Sequence record: OP114733
Source of the DNA: Escherichia phage vB_EcoM-pEB20
Reading direction: 5' to 3' (one strand)
DNA: 64,000 nt
The notes beneath the pieces were generated by a model, which was not told the DNA's origin, made no database searches, and worked only from the letters and a program-made list of their open reading frames with translations. Positions within the stretch are counted from its first letter, which is position 1. Every line of letters begins with the position of its first letter. Positions 1-7,844 of this stretch are shown here, piece after piece. Made by a program: the position numbers and the translations under genes.

Positions 1-1
1 G

Positions 2-238
2 TTAGGATTTATAGGGAACACTGGTGGATTCACAGACCAATGGCAGGACTTACGATATACTCAAGCCTTTGCATCCATTGCATCATTTTGTACTATAGTC
101 TATTTTTACTACGATTTTATAAACCATAACAAGAAAAATAAAAAGGTTTACGCTTCTCAAATGATTAGTTATAATGAACTCCTAGCTAGACGTGAAAATG
201 AAACAATCGAAAACTTTATTAAGGAATGTAGAAAATGA
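2..238 (+). CDS. 5'-truncated hydrophobic protein; C-terminus ENFIKECRK shared with ORF 2387..2692 (paralog)
   Basis: Open frame from window edge to TGA 236-238; ATGA overlap with next start; C-terminal motif match to 2387..2692. Confidence 0.4.
   Translation, partial: LGFIGNTGGFTDQWQDLRYTQAFASIASFCTIVYFYYDFINHNKKNKKVYASQMISYNELLARRENETIENFIKECRK
146..175 (+). promoter_or_regulatory. sigma70-type early promoter (GTTTAC -35, TATAAT -10) embedded in 3' end of upstream CDS
   Basis: GTTTAC at 146-151, 17-18 nt spacer, TATAAT about 170-175, upstream of ATG 235. Confidence 0.45.
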
Positions 239-540
239 GTAAGATTATTGAAATTAAAGTACCAGAGTTTAATGATGCCAAATCCGCTTCAGATGCAATT
301 TATAAACTTCTGAATCAAGCTGAACGTATCGAAGAAGAAGCAACAAAGATCGCAGACCAATATGCCGTATCATTTTCTGTAGGTGATTATGGTAGCGGTC
401 GTACTTATTATCCTAAGGGTGAAATCGTATCCCAGTGGATGAAAGATGAAATTGAAAATAATGGTGGCGATGTTAAGCGTGAAGGTAATGGTTACGTTAT
501 TACTGAAGGTGCTTGGGTTTCGTCTTCTGCGTTGTGCTAA
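235..540 (+). CDS. small acidic protein, member 1 of tandem paralog trio with conserved C-terminal GxWVxSSxxC
   Basis: ORF track; ends ...GAWVSSSALC; two paralogs immediately downstream. Confidence 0.6.
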   Translation: MSKIIEIKVPEFNDAKSASDAIYKLLNQAERIEEEATKIADQYAVSFSVGDYGSGRTYYPKGEIVSQWMKDEIENNGGDVKREGNGYVITEGAWVSSSALC

Positions 541-549
541 GGAATCATT

Positions 550-822
550 ATGTCTAAAGAACAAACCGAACTGGCTGAAGCTGTAGCAAAAATCTATGCA
601 GCTATTGAGGCTGCCAAAGAAATTGCTGATAAACAAAACACAACATTCGACTTGTACCCAGCTTATGGTATGGGTGGAACCTATCATTCACCCGGACATC
701 TTAAAGCCGATCTTGAACGTTGTACAAAAAACGGCTATGCTGAATGGGCTGACGTTTACCAATACGACTACAACCTGAGCCTTGAAGATGGCGGTTGGGT
801 TGCATCTTCTCACACTTGCTAA
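550..822 (+). CDS. paralog 2 of GxWVxSSxxC family
   Basis: ORF track; ends ...GGWVASSHTC. Confidence 0.6.
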   Translation: MSKEQTELAEAVAKIYAAIEAAKEIADKQNTTFDLYPAYGMGGTYHSPGHLKADLERCTKNGYAEWADVYQYDYNLSLEDGGWVASSHTC

Positions 823-831
823 GGAAACAAT

Positions 832-1029
832 ATGTCTCGTGAATTAGATTGTGCTGTACGTACGGCAGTAGCTGCTCTGGAAAACCTGTTCCAAATTGCA
901 ACAGAAGAACGCGAAGAAGTTACATTATGGATTGAAGATAACGCAGGTCTGAATCTCCAGGACGCGATCTCATTATCCCACAATAGTATCACTGTTCAAG
1001 GCTGGGTATCATCTAGTTATTCTTGCTAA
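832..1029 (+). CDS. paralog 3 of GxWVxSSxxC family
   Basis: ORF track; ends ...QGWVSSSYSC. Confidence 0.6.
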   Translation: MSRELDCAVRTAVAALENLFQIATEEREEVTLWIEDNAGLNLQDAISLSHNSITVQGWVSSSYSC

Positions 1030-1033
1030 AACA

Positions 1034-1063
1034 GTTTACAACAAGATAGGGCTATGTTATAGT
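1034..1063 (+). promoter_or_regulatory. early promoter inside imperfect inverted repeat (PeSL-like cassette)
   Basis: GTTTAC 1034-1039; -10 TATAGT near 1058; arms GATAGG/CCTATC flank the -10. Confidence 0.5.
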
Positions 1064-1091
1064 AGTCCTATCAAAACAAATGGAGTCCACA

Positions 1092-1331
1092 ATGATTTAT
1101 TACGAAAGTATCGGAACCAAAGTGGTTGGTAAAACCATTACTCGTGAAAAGTTTGCAAAGATATTCGATATGCGTTATAAAAAATCTGAACACAAAGGCA
1201 TCCGATTCGAAGATGCGCACTGTACAATTTGCCCTTATAATGAAGACATAAACGGTACAATCGTTCCATTGGTAGAGGCTTCACATGATGACCTCTGGGA
1301 TGAATATGATATCGCATGTCGTGAAATTTAA
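1092..1331 (+). CDS. hypothetical protein
   Basis: ORF 1080..1331; second in-frame ATG (M5) follows GGAG RBS in right arm of cassette. Confidence 0.5.
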   Translation: MIYYESIGTKVVGKTITREKFAKIFDMRYKKSEHKGIRFEDAHCTICPYNEDINGTIVPLVEASHDDLWDEYDIACREI

Positions 1332-1359
1332 GTTAATGAATTAATCCGAGGAAAATATT

Positions 1360-2316
1360 ATGATGTTGGTTATTGGTTCTCGTGCACTTCACTATCACGG
1401 TCTTATTGATTCTAGCGCTATTAAAAATAGTGATTGGGACTTTATTGCGGACCAATGTTCTTGGAATGCATTCAAAAATCAAATGATGGGTGTATATGTT
1501 CACCAAGATAACCCTGATGTCCAAGTTTTCAAATGCTTCCATAATGGACGCGAAACTCATTTTGAAGCATATATTGTTCCGGCAATCACTAATGTCCGTG
1601 AATTAGTCGGTGAACTCACTCCTGAAGATTTCACGTCTTCTTATGACCTTTTAAAATACGCCAAGAAAAATTTGACTAAAGACCGTTTGAACGGGTTTTA
1701 CTGGGCAACTCCTGAGATATGTCTTGCAATTAAGATGTCTCATCGTTTCAAGAAAAATAATCCATTCTTTTTAAAGACTATGAACCATATTCAGTATCTT
1801 CGTGGTAAAGGTGTTACACTGGACGATGAACTTACTGAAATTATGCTGAAACGCCAGAAAGAAACCTTGAATTATGCTCACCCAGTTCTTGACACTTCTA
1901 AAAGTGCGTTCTTTAAAGATGACATCTATACATATGACCATGATACTATTCATGAAGCCATTGCACTAACAGACCGTCCAGCGTATACATTTTACATGAA
2001 AGATGGTTCTGAAGTCATGACCTCACGCGAGAAGTTCGAATCATTACCAGAAATGGTCAAATTGGCTGGTGTATACGAAGAATCATGTGTACTAGCGTTA
2101 GAACGTTCTCAGATTCCTAATAACTTTGAAATCCATCCACGTGATAGTTTTATGATGGCTCTTGAAAAGGTCTGTACTTCAATCACATCAGGTTGGTTCC
2201 GTGAATACGCCTGGGAAAACCACAGCAAAGTAGTAAGTATGTACCAAAGCTTAGGACATGACGATTACGTCAAACGTTTCAAACAAAATTTCCATATGGT
2301 AAAACCTTTCAAATAA
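1360..2316 (+). CDS. nucleotidyltransferase-fold protein (GS-x13-DxD motif near N-terminus)
   Basis: IGSRALHYHGLIDSSAIKNSDWDF resembles Pol-beta superfamily hG[GS]x9-13Dh[DE]h motif. Confidence 0.55.
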   Translation: MMLVIGSRALHYHGLIDSSAIKNSDWDFIADQCSWNAFKNQMMGVYVHQDNPDVQVFKCFHNGRETHFEAYIVPAITNVRELVGELTPEDFTSSYDLLKYAKKNLTKDRLNGFYWATPEICLAIKMSHRFKKNNPFFLKTMNHIQYLRGKGVTLDDELTEIMLKRQKETLNYAHPVLDTSKSAFFKDDIYTYDHDTIHEAIALTDRPAYTFYMKDGSEVMTSREKFESLPEMVKLAGVYEESCVLALERSQIPNNFEIHPRDSFMMALEKVCTSITSGWFREYAWENHSKVVSMYQSLGHDDYVKRFKQNFHMVKPFK

Positions 2317-2328
2317 TTTCGCAAAACT

Positions 2329-2366
2329 GTTTACATCTTGATAGGACTATGTTATAGTAGTCCTAT
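2329..2366 (+). promoter_or_regulatory. early promoter in perfect 9-bp inverted repeat (PeSL-like)
   Basis: GTTTAC 2329-2334; arms ATAGGACTA 2341-2349 and TAGTCCTAT 2358-2366 flank -10. Confidence 0.55.
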
Positions 2367-2386
2367 TAAAACATGAGGAGAATATT

Positions 2387-2692
2387 ATGAAATTAGGCGA
2401 AACCAACCGAATTGGTCTTTTAACAATATTTGTATCACTTTTTTACGCAGCTCTTTCTGTTGCAGTATTACAAAAGGCTTACAGTATGGATGGTGTTCCT
2501 GGTTTTGTATTCTTATCGCCGTTTTTGCTATTCGTTGGAGCATTGTTATTATATGCCACGACTAGTTTCGACCATAATGTCTGGGTCAATTATAAATGTA
2601 AATTGTCTGAAGAAGAACACGCAGAAGCTCGTAAAAAAGCTATTGAATCTACCAATCTAGAAAATTTCATTAAAGAATGTCGAGGAAAATAA
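2387..2692 (+). CDS. small membrane protein (2 predicted TM helices)
   Basis: ORF track; hydrophobic N-terminal half; C-terminus ENFIKECRGK. Confidence 0.6.
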   Translation: MKLGETNRIGLLTIFVSLFYAALSVAVLQKAYSMDGVPGFVFLSPFLLFVGALLLYATTSFDHNVWVNYKCKLSEEEHAEARKKAIESTNLENFIKECRGK

Positions 2693-2693
2693 T

Positions 2694-3380
2694 ATGAATA
2701 GTTCTAAAGTGTTTAATAGTCAAGCTCGTGCAGTAGGTGGTTTTGCTCATGCGATTAAAAATGACCAGATTAAAAACGAGCCTATGTTCTTTAACTGCGA
2801 TTTGAATTTTGCTTTTGATAATGGCGGCCCAATTACTCGTAGCTTTATCCAAAATCTTCCTGACGATTGGAAAGACTCGGATGTAGTATTTGATTCACGA
2901 GTCCACATGTTGATGCCTGGTTGGTATCCTGCTATCCCAGGTTATCACCATGACGATGTACCACGCCCGGATATTCCGGTTGGTCAACATTTTATTACTG
3001 CAGGACAACCTGACTATGACAACCCTCGTTACCATTCTGAACATATTCTTGGTCTTGTTAACGCTGATGTGTGTCCTACTCATTTTGCAACAGGAACTGC
3101 AGAGTTCAGTCAGATTCCTGATGGCGAACTTATCTATCGCCAGTGGCACAAAGAAGTCCTCGAAAAAATTGAAAAAGGTGAACTAGAGAAATGGGAAGCT
3201 CCAGACCGTACTCTTCTTCAGTTTGATTGGCAAACATGGCACACTGGCTCTCATGCAATTAGTAATGGATGGCGTTGGTTCGGACGTGTATCTCGTAATA
3301 CAGACCGAGTTAAAAAGATTACCAATGAAATTCGTGTCAATGCTCAAGTTTATCTGGAATTCCCTATGGAAGGCTGGTAA
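2694..3380 (+). CDS. hypothetical protein, His-rich (possible metal-dependent enzyme)
   Basis: ORF track; motifs YHHDD, HFATG, WHTGSH. Confidence 0.55.
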   Translation: MNSSKVFNSQARAVGGFAHAIKNDQIKNEPMFFNCDLNFAFDNGGPITRSFIQNLPDDWKDSDVVFDSRVHMLMPGWYPAIPGYHHDDVPRPDIPVGQHFITAGQPDYDNPRYHSEHILGLVNADVCPTHFATGTAEFSQIPDGELIYRQWHKEVLEKIEKGELEKWEAPDRTLLQFDWQTWHTGSHAISNGWRWFGRVSRNTDRVKKITNEIRVNAQVYLEFPMEGW

Positions 3381-3871
3381 TGATTAACAAAACATATTGG
3401 TCTAATATTGACGACGGCAATGAAGGTATTTCGTACTATTCAGTGGATTGGACAGGATGTCCATCCTACTTAGTGAAACATATTTGCCAAGAATTTAAAA
3501 TCGACCAGCCAGCAGGTATTATTGTGAACAGATACATTAATGGATATCAACCTATCGATGAAGTAATACGAACAACTCAAGCTGAGCTTGAAAAGTTTTT
3601 CAATAAGTGCCAATGGATAACAGGATGGATTATATTTGTACCGTCGGTATGGTTTTTTAGTACTAAGGTGAGTTCTTTCGGTTTTGTTGATATTACTGCT
3701 ATCTTATTAGCATCTAGTATCATAAGTGTTGTTGGTGGCATCATTGGCGGCGGTGCCGCCGCTATCATTATTAATCTTATTAAAAGTAGTTTACAAGAAC
3801 GTAAAGACAAGATAAAAGCCAAGAATAATGAAGTTGAACGTTTTATTACCGAATGCAGGAATTTGAGATGA
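3380..3871 (+). CDS. membrane protein with Gly-rich TM segment
   Basis: ORF track; IISVVGGIIGGGAAAIIINLI hydrophobic stretch. Confidence 0.55.
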   Translation: MINKTYWSNIDDGNEGISYYSVDWTGCPSYLVKHICQEFKIDQPAGIIVNRYINGYQPIDEVIRTTQAELEKFFNKCQWITGWIIFVPSVWFFSTKVSSFGFVDITAILLASSIISVVGGIIGGGAAAIIINLIKSSLQERKDKIKAKNNEVERFITECRNLR

Positions 3872-4104
3872 GTATAGCAATTTACATTAAATCAGAATCA
3901 TGTGATAGTTATCTGTACACATACGATAAAGATGTGTCAGAAGAAAAAATCAAAGACGACCTTAATATGGACCTTGATATGTTCTGTCCTATTGCAGATT
4001 ACAAACTTGCGGTCTCTAATAGTGAAAGTCCATCTAAAGAAACGCGCATTGAAGAATTTATGTCCGAATTAATGGCCAAATCATGGGACCGAGATGATGA
4101 GTAA
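3868..4104 (+). CDS. hypothetical acidic protein
   Basis: ORF 3853..4104; M6 start gives ATGA overlap with upstream stop. Confidence 0.5.
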   Translation: MSIAIYIKSESCDSYLYTYDKDVSEEKIKDDLNMDLDMFCPIADYKLAVSNSESPSKETRIEEFMSELMAKSWDRDDE

Positions 4105-4552
4105 GAAAAATAAAGTGAAAGAACTATCAGCCGGTATTATTTTCCTTACCGAAGATAAAGAATTATTCATGGGGCGTGTAACTGGTTCTCGTCCTAAAGG
4201 TTCTTTAGCTCATCGGTGGGATATTCCTAAAGGACGTGTCGAGCCCGGTGAATCTCCTATTGAAGCCGCTATTCGCGAATGCGAAGAAGAAACTGGGTTT
4301 ACACAATATGACCCTGCCTTCCTGAAAGACCTAGGTGAACATCATTACTCAGACAATAAGAATATTCATCTGTTCCTATATACCATCCCTGTAGAGCACG
4401 AGCAATTCAGAAACAGTGTTTGTAATTCCTATCATACATTCCCAGACGGACGACAGATTCCTGAATTTGATGCATTCGCTTTAATTAAACCTTCTCAATG
4501 GGAATATGTAATGGGCAAATCATTATATAGGGTGCTCACTACCCTCCTATAA
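4094..4552 (+). CDS. nudE: Nudix hydrolase (T4 e.1/NudE-like)
   Basis: Nudix box GRVEPGESPIEAAIRECEEETG; sits immediately upstream of lysozyme as in T4. Confidence 0.85.
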   Translation: MMSKKNKVKELSAGIIFLTEDKELFMGRVTGSRPKGSLAHRWDIPKGRVEPGESPIEAAIRECEEETGFTQYDPAFLKDLGEHHYSDNKNIHLFLYTIPVEHEQFRNSVCNSYHTFPDGRQIPEFDAFALIKPSQWEYVMGKSLYRVLTTLL

Positions 4553-4553
4553 G

Positions 4554-4562
4554 TAATAAATA
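4554..4562 (+). promoter_or_regulatory. candidate late promoter (TAATAAATA, one mismatch to T4 late TATAAATA)
   Basis: Sequence at 4554-4562 just upstream of hairpin and e start codon. Confidence 0.4.
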
Positions 4563-4584
4563 CCTCCTATAAACATGGGAGGTA
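4561..4584 (+). promoter_or_regulatory. RBS-sequestering hairpin of lysozyme gene
   Basis: TACCTCC 4561-4567 pairs with GGAGGTA 4578-4584, which contains the SD GGGAGG. Confidence 0.55.
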
Positions 4585-4586
4585 TT

Positions 4587-5075
4587 ATGAATATATTTGA
4601 AATGCTTCGTAATGACGAAGGTCTTAGACTGACTTTATACAAAGACACTGAAGGCTTTTGGACGATTGGCATCGGCCATTTAGTAACAAAGAACCCGTCT
4701 TTAGCCGTAGCTAAAGCTGAACTTGACAGAATGATCGGTCGTAAATGCAACGGTACAATTACCCTTGATGAGGCTGAAAAGCTATTTAATGAAGACGTTG
4801 ATAAAGCCGTCCGCGGAATCTTGGGTAATGCTAAACTTAAACCGGTATATGATTCTTTAGATGCGGTTCGTCGATGCGCATTGGTTAATATGGTCTTCCA
4901 AATGGGTGTATCAGGCGTCGCCGGTTTTACTAATTCTCTTCGTATGCTTCAACAGAAACGTTGGGATGAAGCGGCAGTAAATCTAGCCCAATCTAAATGG
5001 TATCGTCAGACACCTAATCGTGCGAAACGCGTAATCTCAACATTTAAAACAGGAACTTGGAAAGCGTATATATGA
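4587..5075 (+). CDS. e: endolysin, T4 lysozyme (gp e)
   Basis: [31 protein letters not shown] nearly identical to T4 lysozyme as recalled; 162 aa. Confidence 0.95.
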
Positions 5076-5353
5076 AAACATATAGTGAATTTTTATCAGA
5101 ATCTATTCTTAACGAAGCTACTGACACATTTGCAACTAAGCTAGGTGCAGCTTTGGTTGAAGCTGAAAGTCTATTAGCACGTATTTCTGAACTTGCTAGT
5201 AAGATAGATACTCGCAAATTTGAACGTACCAGCGATATCGCTAAGCTTGAAGCCTTGTTACGTATGTGCGATAAACCGGAAGAAATCGCTAAGAACGGCT
5301 CGCTAATGAAACAACGTCTTGAAAAATATATTTCAGGCGCTTCGGAAAAATAG
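5072..5353 (+). CDS. internal-protein-like with capsid targeting sequence [10 protein letters not shown]
   Basis: N-terminal CTS-like decapeptide typical of T4 IPI/IPII/IPIII; ATGA overlap with e. Confidence 0.6.
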
Positions 5354-5411
5354 TGTTTACTTCCTCCAAGGACTTTGATACTATACATTCATCAACTACT
5401 TGGAGGAAATT

Positions 5412-5825
5412 ATGACCCGTATCAATTTAACACTTGTTTCTGAACTGTCCGACCAACATCTTATGGCTGAGTATCGTGAATTACCACGCGTATTTGGTGC
5501 AGTCCGTAAACATGTTCAAAACGGTAAACGTGTAAAGGATTTTAAAATCTCTCCAACATTTATCTTAGGCACAGGTCACGTAACATTCTTTTACGACAAA
5601 CTCGAATTTTTACGTTTACGACAAATCGAGCTAATCGCTGAATGCTTGAAACGTGGTTTCAAAATCAAGGACACGACTGTCCAGGATATTTCCGACATCC
5701 CTGCCGAATTTCGTAATAATTATGTCCCGTCCGAAGCGTCCATTGCGATAAGTCAAGCACGCTTAGATGAAAAAATTGCTCAACGTCCGACTTGGTACAA
5801 ATACTATGGTAAATCAATTTACTAA
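5412..5825 (+). CDS. denV: endonuclease V, pyrimidine-dimer DNA glycosylase
   Basis: [24 protein letters not shown].. near-identical to T4 EndoV as recalled. Confidence 0.9.
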
Positions 5826-5832
5826 GGAAAAA

Positions 5833-6093
5833 ATGAAAATGTATCAAGAATTTATCACTGAAGCAGATGCCAAAGGTCCTAAATTTAAAGTTAAAGCTTT
5901 CATTGGTGATGCGGAAGACTTTGGCTCATTAAAACGTAATGGGTATTCTTTCTTAGGTGGCAATGGTAAAGAAATCAACACCTATGCAAAACGTAGTGAA
6001 ATTGCTTATGTTGTAGCAAGCCCTAAAGTAGATGTTGACGATATTGGATACGATTTTAACAACTTCGGAATTATTTCTGGCGGTAAAGATTAA
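5833..6093 (+). CDS. internal-protein-like with CTS MKMYQEFITE
   Basis: Start taken at M23 of ORF 5767 (after denV stop, AAGGAAA RBS). Confidence 0.6.
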   Translation: MKMYQEFITEADAKGPKFKVKAFIGDAEDFGSLKRNGYSFLGGNGKEINTYAKRSEIAYVVASPKVDVDDIGYDFNNFGIISGGKD

Positions 6094-6157
6094 ATTGTTT
6101 ACGCTTAAGTATTAATATGGTATAATTACTCTATCAAAACAAACAAGGAAACAAAAA

Positions 6158-6472
6158 ATGAAAACGTATAAAGAATTTATTGCAGAATCCGCCAACCAAC
6201 GCGTTGAAGGTGGTTATATTTGGATTGAACAAGTTGAGCCACCGAGCCGCACTTCTACAGGTAAATGGAAAATTACTGTTGACGGTCCTGGCGGTAAACG
6301 TAGGACTCTTAAAGAAATTAACGGGTACTATGAAGAAGCTCTTTCGGATGCAGGAACTTACATGATGCAAATCATGATTAAAAACCCTGAAAACCGTTTT
6401 GCAGCTAAAGTCTTCCGCCGTATTGGTAATAAACTTTATGATGCATACTCTAAAAACTTCCCTAAAGAATAA
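6158..6472 (+). CDS. internal-protein-like with CTS MKTYKEFIAE
   Basis: ORF track; CTS-like N-terminus. Confidence 0.65.
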   Translation: MKTYKEFIAESANQRVEGGYIWIEQVEPPSRTSTGKWKITVDGPGGKRRTLKEINGYYEEALSDAGTYMMQIMIKNPENRFAAKVFRRIGNKLYDAYSKNFPKE

Positions 6473-6497
6473 CATAAATTAAAACAATAGGAACAAA

Positions 6498-6827
6498 ATG
6501 AAAACATATCAGGAGTTTATCACTGAAGTTACATTATCTGCGGAACAGAAAGCTGCTATCGAAGAAGGTAAAAATCCCAAAGTAACATATAAAGTAAATA
6601 GTAAAGGCGTTTTTGATGGCTTGGTTCAAGACCCTGAATTGAAAAAAGCTCTTTCTAAAACTAATGCGTACTTTGCTCCTAAATTTAACACAGCCGGTGT
6701 ACTTATTGGATTGGATGTATTCAACTCTAAAGGTGTTCTATCTAATGCCTTTGGTTATGCCGCTAACAAAATTACCAAAGCCGCATGGGAATCCAATACC
6801 AAACAAGCTCAAAAGCCTAGAGTATAA
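6498..6827 (+). CDS. internal-protein-like with CTS MKTYQEFITE
   Basis: ORF track; CTS-like N-terminus. Confidence 0.65.
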   Translation: MKTYQEFITEVTLSAEQKAAIEEGKNPKVTYKVNSKGVFDGLVQDPELKKALSKTNAYFAPKFNTAGVLIGLDVFNSKGVLSNAFGYAANKITKAAWESNTKQAQKPRV

Positions 6828-6999
6828 TTCTTGCCTAATAAATGGAAACGCAACCTCTCCTCATGAACGTCGAGTCCTCTGAGTGATGTACCTTTTCCAA
6901 CCTGTAATAAGGTCGAGCGCAATGCGGTAATGGGTTTACATAGCGAGTCGAAGGACCTAACATGTGCCACGGAATGGCCCAAACCTTAAGAGAAATAAT

Positions 7000-7539
7000 A
7001 TGAGAACATTTTTAACTGGACCTTATCTATCCCTGATGAATGCTTTTACACACCATTCTGATGCTAGAGTAGAAGAAATTTGTAAGAACGGTTATGTCCC
7101 GCCATTTGAAGACGTACTCAAGCAGTACTGCACACTTCGTTTAGACGGCGGCCGACAATCAGGTAAATCAATTGCTGTGACTAACTTTGCTGCTAATTGG
7201 CTGTATGATGGTGGAACAGTTATTGTTCTTTCTAATACTTCAGCTTATGCTAAAATTTCTGCTGGCAACATTAAAAAAGAATTTTCTCGTTATTCTAGCG
7301 ATGATATTCGATTCCGTTTATTTACTGATTCTGTTCGTAGTTTTATTGGCAATGAAGGTTCTAAATTCCGTGGATTAACGCTTTCTCGTATTCTGTATAT
7401 AATTGACGAGCCTATTAAAGCTCCTGATATGGATAAGATTTACAATGTACATATTAAAACAGTCCAACACTGTTGCAAAAGCAAATATTGCATCGGCGGT
7501 AATGCTCGTCCTCAATTTTTTGTGATTGGAATGCAATGA
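7000..7539 (+). CDS. hypothetical protein with Walker-A-like GGRQSGKS
   Basis: Start at M13 of ORF 6964 after AGAGAAATAAT; P-loop-like motif. Confidence 0.5.
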   Translation: MRTFLTGPYLSLMNAFTHHSDARVEEICKNGYVPPFEDVLKQYCTLRLDGGRQSGKSIAVTNFAANWLYDGGTVIVLSNTSAYAKISAGNIKKEFSRYSSDDIRFRLFTDSVRSFIGNEGSKFRGLTLSRILYIIDEPIKAPDMDKIYNVHIKTVQHCCKSKYCIGGNARPQFFVIGMQ

Positions 7540-7844
7540 TGACAACTATTGAAGTTTTTGAGTATTGTTATAACAGCCCAGTATGCAATAAAAGGGCTCT
7601 TGTAGAAAATTACGAGATTTACCATTTTAAACCTAAACGATACCGTTTGACTAAAGGTCCGTTCGCAGGGCAGCAGGTTCTTTGTACTGCTCCTAATGCA
7701 CGGTTGATGACTAGTATTCCGCATTTCAAAATGGAATTTATTGACGGGCCATTTAAGGGATTAATCACTCAAAGTTTAATGGCGTTTAATTCCGACCCAT
7801 TTTTGATTAAAGAAAAAACTTGGATAAATTTATTTTCTAATTGA
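7536..7844 (+). CDS. hypothetical protein
   Basis: ORF track; overlaps upstream stop. Confidence 0.5.
   Translation: MMTTIEVFEYCYNSPVCNKRALVENYEIYHFKPKRYRLTKGPFAGQQVLCTAPNARLMTSIPHFKMEFIDGPFKGLITQSLMAFNSDPFLIKEKTWINLFSN

What the first reader, a model, noticed from the sequence alone, without database searches (positions are those of the whole stretch)
5072..6827. Four tandem genes with capsid-targeting N-termini (internal-protein-like), interrupted by denV
ORFs at 5072, 5833, 6158 and 6498 start [30 protein letters not shown] and MKTYQEFITE. These resemble the T4 capsid targeting sequence cleaved by the prohead protease. The bodies are unrelated. Internal proteins are injected with the DNA, and T4 IPI is an anti-restriction factor. 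These four are candidate packaged anti-defence effectors.
Basis: partly seen in the sequence, partly recalled or inferred. Interest (0 to 1): 0.6.

Follow-up and report, generated by a model that had tools for sequence, protein, structure and literature searches.

The report
T4-type internal protein gene cassettes
These are four small genes of an RB69-like coliphage that carry the well-known T4 "capsid targeting" leader, so they are ordinary members of the long-described, highly variable internal-protein locus whose T4 products are injected with the DNA and block host restriction enzymes.

Summary
The window is a Mosigvirus about 98% identical to RB69. Four + strand genes (5072, 5833, 6158, 6498) begin with MK[TM]YxEF[IL]xE. 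That motif occurs nowhere else in the six-frame translation of the 64 kb. T4 IpII and IpIII begin MKTYQEFIAE. denV lies between the first and second gene.

With the leader removed, the four bodies are unrelated to each other and to T4 IpI, IpII and IpIII.

- Gene 1 belongs to the Ip5 family of Repoila 1994.
- Gene 2 matches the VR25 gp125 "internal head protein".
- Gene 3 belongs to the Ip10 family.
- Gene 4 is an orphan, found only in some Mosigviruses and in Dhakavirus.

The e–denV–vs.8 interval is a known hypervariable Ip locus. T4, teqhal, VR25, WG01, Shf125875 and Karamvirus each hold different leader-bearing cassettes there.

Published work shows that T4 Ip1, Ip2 and Ip3 each inhibit a distinct GmrSD type IV restriction enzyme, and it proposes the same role for all Ip-locus genes. 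Packaging, processing and targets of these four proteins remain untested. Novelty is low.

The parts
4575..5075 (+). Gene e (T4-type soluble lysozyme). It is the left conserved flank of the Ip locus.
   Evidence: Pfam Phage_lysozyme 6e-14 and PHROG endolysin. It is annotated e in RB69.
5072..5353 (+). IP-A, an internal protein of the Ip5 family (93 aa). The leader is [11 protein letters not shown] second, family-conserved LNE site lies at residues 13-15. The ATG overlaps the stop of e.
   Evidence: phrog_3499 'internal head protein' 2e-46. With the leader removed, the body is 47% identical to RB15 Ip5 (E 7e-19) and 90% identical to VR25 ip5. It corresponds to RB69ORF127c.
5355..5408 (+). T4-early-type promoter-like site (GTTTAC-N18-TACTAT, 5355-5384), overlapped by an inverted repeat (5361-5375 / 5394-5408) that includes the denV Shine-Dalgarno sequence.
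   Evidence: Regex scan and inverted repeat I3, 87% complementary. The function is inferred. Such promoter plus stem-loop elements are reported at Ip loci (PMC2839356).
5412..5825 (+). denV, pyrimidine-dimer DNA glycosylase (endonuclease V). It is a conserved gene embedded in the Ip locus.
   Evidence: Pfam PF03013 4.8e-14 and phrog_1183 3e-62. RB69 annotation.
5833..6093 (+). IP-B, an internal protein (86 aa) with leader MKMYQEFITE.
   Evidence: phrog_2667 'internal head protein' 3e-21. The body is 73% identical to VR25 gp125 'internal head protein'. It was found in 217 phage records. It corresponds to RB69ORF125c.
6097..6126 (+). T4-early-type or sigma-70-like promoter site (GTTTAC-N18-TATAAT, with TG) upstream of IP-C.
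   Evidence: It is the best promoter-like site in the scan, 10 of 12 matches, and it was also found by regex. The function is inferred.
6158..6472 (+). IP-C, an internal protein of the Ip10 family (104 aa) with leader MKTYKEFIAE. The mature part is basic (pI 9.6).
   Evidence: It is 72% identical to VR25 ip10 and Shigella phage SP18 Ip10, and 97% identical to the Tequatrovirus teqhal 'putative internal head protein'. It corresponds to RB69ORF124c, which is frameshifted in the reference.
6498..6827 (+). IP-D, an orphan leader-bearing protein (109 aa) with leader MKTYQEFITE. The mature part is basic (pI 9.7).
   Evidence: Real homologues occur only in 76 close Mosigvirus-type records and in Dhakavirus (WG01 ORF115, 36-39% identity), which also carries the leader and sits in the same slot. 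It corresponds to RB69ORF123c 'hypothetical'. The AF2 model has pLDDT 79 and no solved-structure relative.
6934..6963 (+). T4-early-type promoter-like site (GTTTAC-N18-TAACAT) before vs.8.
   Evidence: Regex scan. The function is inferred.
7000..7539 (+). vs.8 homologue, the right conserved flank of the Ip locus. The exact start is uncertain (6964 GTG, 7000 ATG or 7036).
   Evidence: RB69 and NRG-P0074 annotations and the ORF list.

Best explanation
The four genes are T4-type internal protein (Ip) cassettes in the hypervariable e-denV-vs.8 locus of an RB69-like Mosigvirus.

Likely mechanism, step by step:
- The roughly 10-residue N-terminal capsid targeting sequence docks each precursor onto the scaffolding core while the prohead assembles.
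- The gp21 prohead protease then cuts after the Glu of the [IL]-x-E motif. For IP-B, IP-C and IP-D this is after residue 10. For the Ip5-like IP-A it is probably after the family-conserved E15, and possibly after E10 as well.
- This releases mature proteins of about 8-11 kDa, which stay in the head and are ejected into the cell with the DNA.
- Being present before any phage gene is expressed, each most likely binds and inactivates one variant of an early-acting nuclease defence. By analogy with T4 Ip1, Ip2 and Ip3, the most probable targets are GmrSD-family type IV restriction enzymes that attack sugar-modified hmC DNA. RB69 DNA carries arabinosyl-hmC.
- The shared leader-coding sequence, together with early-promoter and stem-loop elements at cassette borders, allows cassettes to be swapped, reordered and replaced between phages.

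What is shown here: the leader, the protease motif, the locus, homology to Ip5 and Ip10, purifying selection and cassette turnover. What is inferred: packaging, cleavage, injection and the identity of the targets.
For: - The leader occurs only at these four ORF starts in 64 kb. It is 7-9 of 10 residues identical to the T4 IpII/IpIII leader MKTYQEFIAE, and [IL]xE lies at residues 8-10 in all four.
- The codons of the leader differ synonymously between copies (ACA/ACG, GAA/GAG, ATC/ATT), so the peptide is what is conserved.
- The window is about 98% identical to RB69 and other Mosigviruses. RB69 encodes the gp21 protease, the gp22, gp67 and gp68 core proteins, and a second Ip locus with ipI.
- IP-A is homologous to Ip5 of RB15, and IP-C to Ip10. 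IP-B matches annotated internal head proteins.
- The same interval holds other leader-bearing genes in other phages: T4 has ipIII and ipII; teqhal has an ip10-like gene and ip4; VR25 has ip5, ip10, gp125 and ip7; WG01 has four, including an IpIII homologue; Mosigvirus Shf125875 has a T4 IpII homologue where this window has IP-C and IP-D; a Karamvirus has an Ip10-like gene in the slot between e and denV.
- dN/dS is 0.03-0.19 for IP-A, IP-B and IP-C against other genera.
- From the literature: the first 10 residues of IpIII suffice for packaging (PMC9026906). T4 Ip1, Ip2 and Ip3 each inhibit a distinct GmrSD, and all Ip-locus genes are proposed to do so (PMC12373910). IpIII is needed on ECOR17 (PMC9391042). 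More than 30 Ip variants are known, and promoter plus stem-loop elements lie at the two Ip loci (PMC2839356). RB69 DNA is arabinosyl-hmC and is cut by GmrSD (PMC6024577).
Against: - I found no virion proteomics or N-terminal sequencing for these four proteins.
- None of the bodies is homologous to T4 Ip1, Ip2 or Ip3, so the GmrSD target rests on analogy and position only.
- There is no exact T4 late promoter (TATAAATA) inside the locus. Late expression must be assumed from read-through, for example from gene e, or from imperfect sites.
- IP-A and IP-B are near neutral, unlike the basic T4 Ips.
- The RB69 reference carries frameshifts in ORF127c and ORF124c and lacks E10 in ORF123c. If these are real, some of the genes are dispensable in the laboratory.
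- The IP-D model has no fold-level link to any known anti-restriction protein, and the IP-C model is unreliable.
Confidence: 0.8

Rival explanations
1. The proteins are packaged and injected as described, but their targets are not GmrSD-type type IV restriction enzymes. They would act on other early defences or host functions, for example other nucleases, abortive-infection sensors or host transcription.
For: The bodies share no homology with Ip1, Ip2 or Ip3. IP-D has a small SH3-like barrel with no informative structural neighbour. RB69-type DNA carries arabinose, not glucose (PMC6024577), so its set of enemies may differ. T4 also packages Alt, an enzyme cargo with another role (my own knowledge, not checked here).
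Against: All three T4 Ips tested so far hit GmrSD variants, although they are mutually unrelated in sequence (PMC12373910). In Shf125875 a T4 IpII homologue occupies the same slot as IP-C and IP-D. RB69 DNA is a GmrSD substrate.
Confidence: 0.25
2. The proteins are head-internal cargo with a structural or physical role only, such as neutralising DNA charge, helping DNA condensation or ejection, or filling the scaffolding core. On this view they are not anti-defence effectors.
For: Mature IP-C and IP-D are basic (pI 9.6 and 9.7), like T4 IpII and IpIII. Internal proteins are abundant in T4 heads (PMC7697877, abstract).
Against: IP-A and IP-B are near neutral. A generic physical role does not explain unrelated bodies, cassette replacement between close relatives or purifying selection on each specific body. 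T4 Ip1, Ip2 and Ip3 have specific defence targets.
Confidence: 0.1
3. The shared start is a nucleotide-level element, such as a translation-initiation region or a recombination site, or a remnant of duplication. It would have no protein-targeting function, and the ORFs would be ordinary cytoplasmic early genes.
For: The 30-32 nt leader-coding segment is a dispersed direct repeat, 69-81% identical, and early-type promoters precede some of the genes.
Against: Synonymous differences between copies keep the peptide constant. The same peptide heads experimentally packaged T4 proteins, and 10 residues suffice for targeting. The motif ends in the protease consensus in all four. It is found only in the Ip loci.
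Confidence: 0.03

Closest known systems
T4 internal proteins IpI, IpII and IpIII, which carry the capsid targeting sequence and inhibit GmrSD type IV restriction enzymes
   Same: They share the N-terminal leader (T4 IpII/IpIII MKTYQEFIAE) and the [IL]xE gp21 motif. They are of small size. ipII and ipIII lie in the same e-denV-vs.8 locus. The bodies are mutually unrelated behind a common leader.
   Different: There is no sequence homology beyond the leader, and they fall in different PHROG families (4363, 7857 and 5341 against 3499, 2667 and 3966). The gene order around denV differs. Activity and targets of the four proteins here are untested.
[not shown]
   Same: IP-A is a homologue over its whole body, 47% identical to RB15 Ip5 and 90% identical to VR25 ip5. 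A conserved [IL]-x-E lies at residues 13-15.
   Different: In RB15 and other Tequatroviruses, Ip5 sits in the other Ip locus (57B-trna.4). Here it follows gene e. Its function is unknown in all of them.
Ip10 (Shigella phage SP18, VR25, VR7 and VR20 annotations)
   Same: IP-C is 72% identical to Ip10 of VR25 and SP18 and 97% identical to a Tequatrovirus copy. It lies in the same locus.
   Different: The slot and the neighbours differ between genera. In Karamvirus the gene lies between e and denV. Its function is unknown.
Anti-CRISPR and anti-defence 'hotspot' loci in phage genomes
   Same: Both are a fixed genomic slot, between conserved genes, that is filled with small, mutually unrelated and rapidly exchanged genes. 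The analogy is drawn in PMC12373910.
   Different: Here the products are marked by a common packaging leader and are delivered as protein with the DNA, rather than expressed after entry.

Membership tests
T4-type internal proteins (prohead-core cargo bearing the capsid targeting sequence) | An N-terminal capsid targeting sequence matching the T4 IpII/IpIII leader MKTYQEFIAE | tested here: met
   All four start MK[TM]YxEF[IL]xE, and the motif is unique to these ORF starts in 64 kb.
T4-type internal proteins (prohead-core cargo bearing the capsid targeting sequence) | A gp21 prohead-protease cleavage motif, (L/I)-x-E, at the end of the leader | tested here: met
   The sites are LSE, ITE, IAE and ITE at residues 8-10. 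IP-A also has the Ip5-family-conserved LNE at 13-15. This was tested by sequence only.
T4-type internal proteins (prohead-core cargo bearing the capsid targeting sequence) | The gene lies in one of the two hypervariable Ip loci of T-even-type genomes (e-denV-vs.8 or 57B-trna.4) | tested here: met
   All four lie between e and vs.8. The same interval carries ipIII and ipII in T4, and other ip genes in teqhal, VR25, WG01 and Shf125875.
T4-type internal proteins (prohead-core cargo bearing the capsid targeting sequence) | The phage encodes the gp21 protease and the gp22, gp67 and gp68 scaffolding core that receive and process the cargo | tested here: inconclusive
   These genes lie outside the 64 kb window. 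They are present in RB69, which is about 98% identical across the locus.
T4-type internal proteins (prohead-core cargo bearing the capsid targeting sequence) | The protein is physically present in mature heads with a processed N-terminus, and is ejected into the host | not testable with these tools
   The held literature contained no proteomic data for these proteins.
Ip5 family | Sequence homology to Ip5 beyond the leader | tested here: met
   The IP-A body against the RB15 Ip5 body gives 47% identity over 74 aa, E 7e-19. tblastn gives 2e-15.
Ip10 family | Sequence homology to Ip10 beyond the leader | tested here: met
   The IP-C body against VR25 ip10 gives 72% identity, E 2e-51. SP18 Ip10 (P0004) gives 72% identity, E 2e-44.
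T4 Ip1, Ip2 and Ip3 (GmrSD inhibitors) | Sequence homology of the mature protein to Ip1, Ip2 or Ip3 | tested here: not met
   Only the leader aligns, and the PHROG families are distinct.
T4 Ip1, Ip2 and Ip3 (GmrSD inhibitors) | Specific inhibition of a GmrSD-family type IV restriction enzyme | not testable with these tools
   This needs plaque assays or biochemistry. The supporting evidence is only by analogy and position.
Known anti-restriction folds, including solved T4 IPI* (tested for IP-D) | Structural similarity of the model to a solved anti-restriction protein | tested here: not met
   [not shown]

The most novel reading that the evidence does not exclude
IP-D is the orphan of the four. 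It occurs only in a subset of Mosigviruses and in Dhakavirus, is basic, has an SH3-like core with no informative structural neighbour, and is labelled 'hypothetical' in nearly all the records listed, with one evident mislabel. It might be a packaged inhibitor of a defence that is not among the GmrSD variants already known as Ip targets. One example would be a nuclease specific for arabinosyl-hmC DNA. That would make it a new anti-defence protein family. More broadly, the RB69-type set of at least six Ips might be tuned to the arabinose modification.
Probability: 0.2. Interest if true: 0.5.

Novelty: already known. Interest (0 to 1): 0.22.

Why it matters
Internal proteins are the first phage molecules to meet host immunity, and their repertoire helps set host range. 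This matters for choosing and engineering T4-like therapeutic phages. After the 2025 demonstration that T4 Ip1, Ip2 and Ip3 each disarm a different GmrSD enzyme, the many uncharacterised Ip cassettes became a ready list of candidate inhibitors, and possibly of probes for unrecognised type IV systems. That list includes Ip5, Ip10, the gp125-type protein and the orphan IP-D seen here. This window adds no new principle. It is a clean example of a known locus.

Tried and rejected
1. **IP-C and IP-D as paralogues.** Both score about 1e-33 on phrog_3966, and BLASTP with the leader gave 32% identity over 72 aa. I rejected paralogy. With the leader removed there is no BLAST hit. hhalign of the two family alignments aligns only the leader. 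HMMER of IP-D against 1.84 billion representatives does not recover Ip10.
2. **An RNA gene in the 6830-6960 gap.** There is no Rfam hit in 4400-7400, no tRNA in the window, and the fold is no better than shuffles (z = +1.1).
3. **Exact T4 late promoters at the locus.** There are none, only one-mismatch sites.
4. **Word-index homologue searches for IP-C and IP-D.** They gave only 2-3 close relatives, so the AlphaFold alignments were shallow. The IP-C model is unusable (pLDDT 49).
5. **The afdb50 fold library.** It was not available.
6. **A paper search for 'Ip10' and 'Ip5' as whole words.** It returned only unrelated papers. Repoila 1994 (PMC395341) is not held.
7. **IP-D related to Ip4 or Ip7.** BLAST E-values were 0.2. 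Weak BFVD matches to uncharacterised T4-like phage proteins had TM about 0.5. This is too weak to claim.
Full report
**Identity of the window.** Megablast of 4500-7600 finds 841 phage records. The best are Mosigviruses (JK36, G53, mar005P1, RB69) at about 98% identity over the whole query. In the RB69 RefSeq record the four genes are RB69ORF127c, 125c, 124c and 123c. They lie between e (lysozyme) and vs.8, with denV after the first. RefSeq names 127c and 125c 'internal head protein' and the other two 'hypothetical'.

**The observation.**
- The four + strand genes are 5072-5353, 5833-6093, 6158-6472 and 6498-6827. They start [30 protein letters not shown] and MKTYQEFITE.
- A six-frame regex scan of all 64 kb finds the motif only at these four starts. 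The shorter core Y.EF[ILV].E is expected 0.1 times in shuffled sequence.
- T4 IpII and IpIII start MKTYQEFIAE. T4 IpI has a longer 19-residue variant that ends ITE.
- All four carry [IL]-x-E at residues 8-10, which is the gp21 cleavage consensus.
- The leader codons differ synonymously between copies, so selection acts on the peptide.
- The 30-32 nt leader-coding segment also shows up as a four-copy dispersed direct repeat.
- denV at 5412-5825 is confirmed by Pfam and PHROGs.

**Are the bodies unrelated?** Yes.
- BLASTP among the four proteins and the three T4 Ips aligns essentially only the first 10-18 residues.
- IP-C and IP-D both hit phrog_3966 strongly, so I tested paralogy. With the leader removed BLAST finds nothing. 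hhalign of small family alignments aligns only 11 leader columns, and the bodies give probability 0.2%.
- The T4 Ips belong to other PHROGs.

**What each gene is.**
  - In the Ip5 family the conserved [IL]-x-E lies at residues 13-15.
  - VR25 lacks Glu10.
  - IP-A is therefore probably cleaved after E15, perhaps also after E10.
- **IP-B** matches phrog_2667 'internal head protein' and VR25 gp125 (73% identity). It occurs in 217 records.
- **IP-C** is an Ip10 homologue. It is 72% identical to VR25 and SP18 Ip10 and 97% identical to a Tequatrovirus copy. Relatives at about 55% identity occur in Karamvirus and Kanagawavirus.
- **IP-D** is an orphan.
  - tblastn finds it in 90 records, namely 76 close copies plus Dhakavirus proteins at about 36% identity.
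  - An exhaustive HMMER search of 1.84 billion representatives finds only its own cluster and the Dhakavirus homologue. The remaining hits are long proteins matched only over short or repeated stretches, which I take to be spurious.
  - The Dhakavirus protein also has the leader (MKTYQQFITE) and sits after denV.

**The locus.** Across Tevenvirinae, the e-denV-vs.8 interval is a slot filled with different leader-bearing cassettes.

| Phage (genus) | Content of the interval |
|---|---|
| T4 | ipIII, ipII, denV |
| teqhal (Tequatrovirus) | denV, Ip10-like, Ip4 |
| VR25 (Gaprivervirus) | ip5, denV, ip10, gp125, ip7 (IP-B-type and IP-C-type genes in the opposite order to this window) |
| WG01 (Dhakavirus) | two Ips including an IpIII homologue, denV, IP-D-like, one more |
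| Shf125875 (Mosigvirus) | Ip5-like, denV, IP-B-like, then a T4 IpII homologue where this window has IP-C and IP-D |
| fGh-Ecl04 (Karamvirus) | a single Ip10-like gene between e and denV |

- RB69 also has the second Ip locus (57B, ORF156 'internal head protein', ipI, tRNA.4), and it encodes the gp21 protease with the gp22, gp67 and gp68 core.
- dN/dS for IP-A, IP-B and IP-C against other genera is 0.03-0.19, so these are constrained protein-coding genes.
- T4-early-type promoter-like sites (GTTTAC-N18-TAnnnT) lie at 5355, 6097 and 6934, which are cassette borders.
  - The first is overlapped by a 15-bp inverted repeat that includes the denV ribosome binding site.
  - This resembles the promoter plus stem-loop elements reported at the Ip loci (PMC2839356). 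Its function here is inferred.
- No exact late promoter is present. The IP-A ATG overlaps the stop of the late gene e, which suggests coupled late expression. This too is an inference.

**Literature.**
- The first ten residues of IpIII suffice for packaging, with positions 4 and 7 critical, and the propeptide is removed by the prohead protease (review PMC9026906).
- More than 30 Ip variants were already known by 2007, in two hypervariable loci (PMC2839356).
- T4 IpIII is needed to infect ECOR17, and it works from the cytoplasm without its leader (PMC9391042).
- T4 Ip1, Ip2 and Ip3 each inhibit one distinct GmrSD type IV restriction enzyme, with no cross-protection. The authors propose that all genes of the two Ip loci target GmrSD variants (PMC12373910).
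- RB69 DNA carries arabinosyl-hmC, is cut by GmrSD, and is protected by its IpI homologue (PMC6024577; PMC13326640).
- I found no virion proteomics for Mosigvirus Ips.

**Structure.**
- PDB sequence searches for all four proteins are negative.
- AlphaFold2 with very shallow alignments gave an unusable IP-C model (pLDDT 49) and a fair IP-D model (pLDDT 79, pTM 0.69). The IP-D model has an N-terminal helical leader region and a small beta-barrel with flanking helices.
- BFVD returns only IP-D's own family, plus weak matches to uncharacterised proteins of other T4-like phages.
- No functional inference follows from the fold.

**Conclusion.**
It is a textbook feature of T-even-type genomes, and the anti-defence hypothesis is already published as a general proposal.
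- Confidence that these are packaged, gp21-processed internal proteins is high, about 0.85-0.9, from sequence and context.
- Confidence that they are anti-defence effectors is moderate to high.
- Confidence that the targets are GmrSD-family enzymes is about even.
- The only mildly new points are these:
  - IP-D is an unannotated, narrowly distributed Ip with no detectable relatives.
  - The Ip5-like protein probably uses a 15-residue leader.
  - The RB69 reference carries frameshifts in two of these genes.

Noticed in passing
window 5072-5110 compared with L001 (RB69) 3573-3612; window 6380-6472 compared with L001 4879-4929: The RB69 reference sequence has a -1/+1 indel pair inside the leader-coding part of ORF127c. 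This gives MKTYMNFYQNLSLNE instead of [15 protein letters not shown]. It also has an extra G in ORF124c that truncates the Ip10-like protein to 90 aa. The window and the other Mosigviruses compared at each site are intact. The cause is either old sequencing errors or decay of these genes in the laboratory stock.
   Followed up: partly
window 5072-5119 (IP-A residues 1-16): In the Ip5 family the conserved protease motif is at residues 13-15 (window LNE, RB15 ITE, VR25 LNE), and VR25 lacks Glu10.
   Followed up: partly
L001 (RB69) 4998-5327, homologue of window 6498-6827: RB69 ORF123c reads MKTYQEFIAA, with Ala in place of the Glu10 cleavage residue, whereas the window has ITE. The next IxE is IEE at residues 21-23. 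Processing of IP-D may therefore differ between close relatives.
   Followed up: no
window 5355-5408: A T4-early-type promoter-like site is overlapped by a 15-bp inverted repeat (5361-5375 / 5394-5408) whose 3' arm contains the denV Shine-Dalgarno sequence GGAGGAA. It could be a promoter plus stem-loop element of the kind reported at Ip cassette borders, or a translational control of denV.
   Followed up: partly
window 6158-6472 compared with L006 (Tequatrovirus teqhal) 3001-3318: The Ip10-like gene is 97% identical in protein and 89% in DNA (dS 0.68) between Mosigvirus and a Tequatrovirus. The adjacent denV is only 77% and 68% identical, with saturated synonymous sites. This suggests that the cassette moved between genera after they split.
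   Followed up: partly
L010 (Escherichia phage vB_EcoM_ESCO10, OM386655) 1-5336: The deposited annotation of this record appears shifted or mis-assigned. The lysozyme, nudE and Ip genes are labelled baseplate subunits, RNA polymerase ADP-ribosylase, DNA ligase and so on. Product names from this record should not be trusted.
   Followed up: no
window 6828-6963: The non-coding gap of about 135 nt between IP-D and vs.8 has no Rfam match, no tRNA and no fold better than shuffles. One relative annotates a 42-aa minus-strand ORF here (NRG-P0074). It contains an early-type promoter-like site at 6934.
   Followed up: yes
window 1-64000: ARAGORN detects no tRNA gene anywhere in the window. The two RB69 tRNAs lie beyond its left end in RB69 coordinates.
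   Followed up: yes
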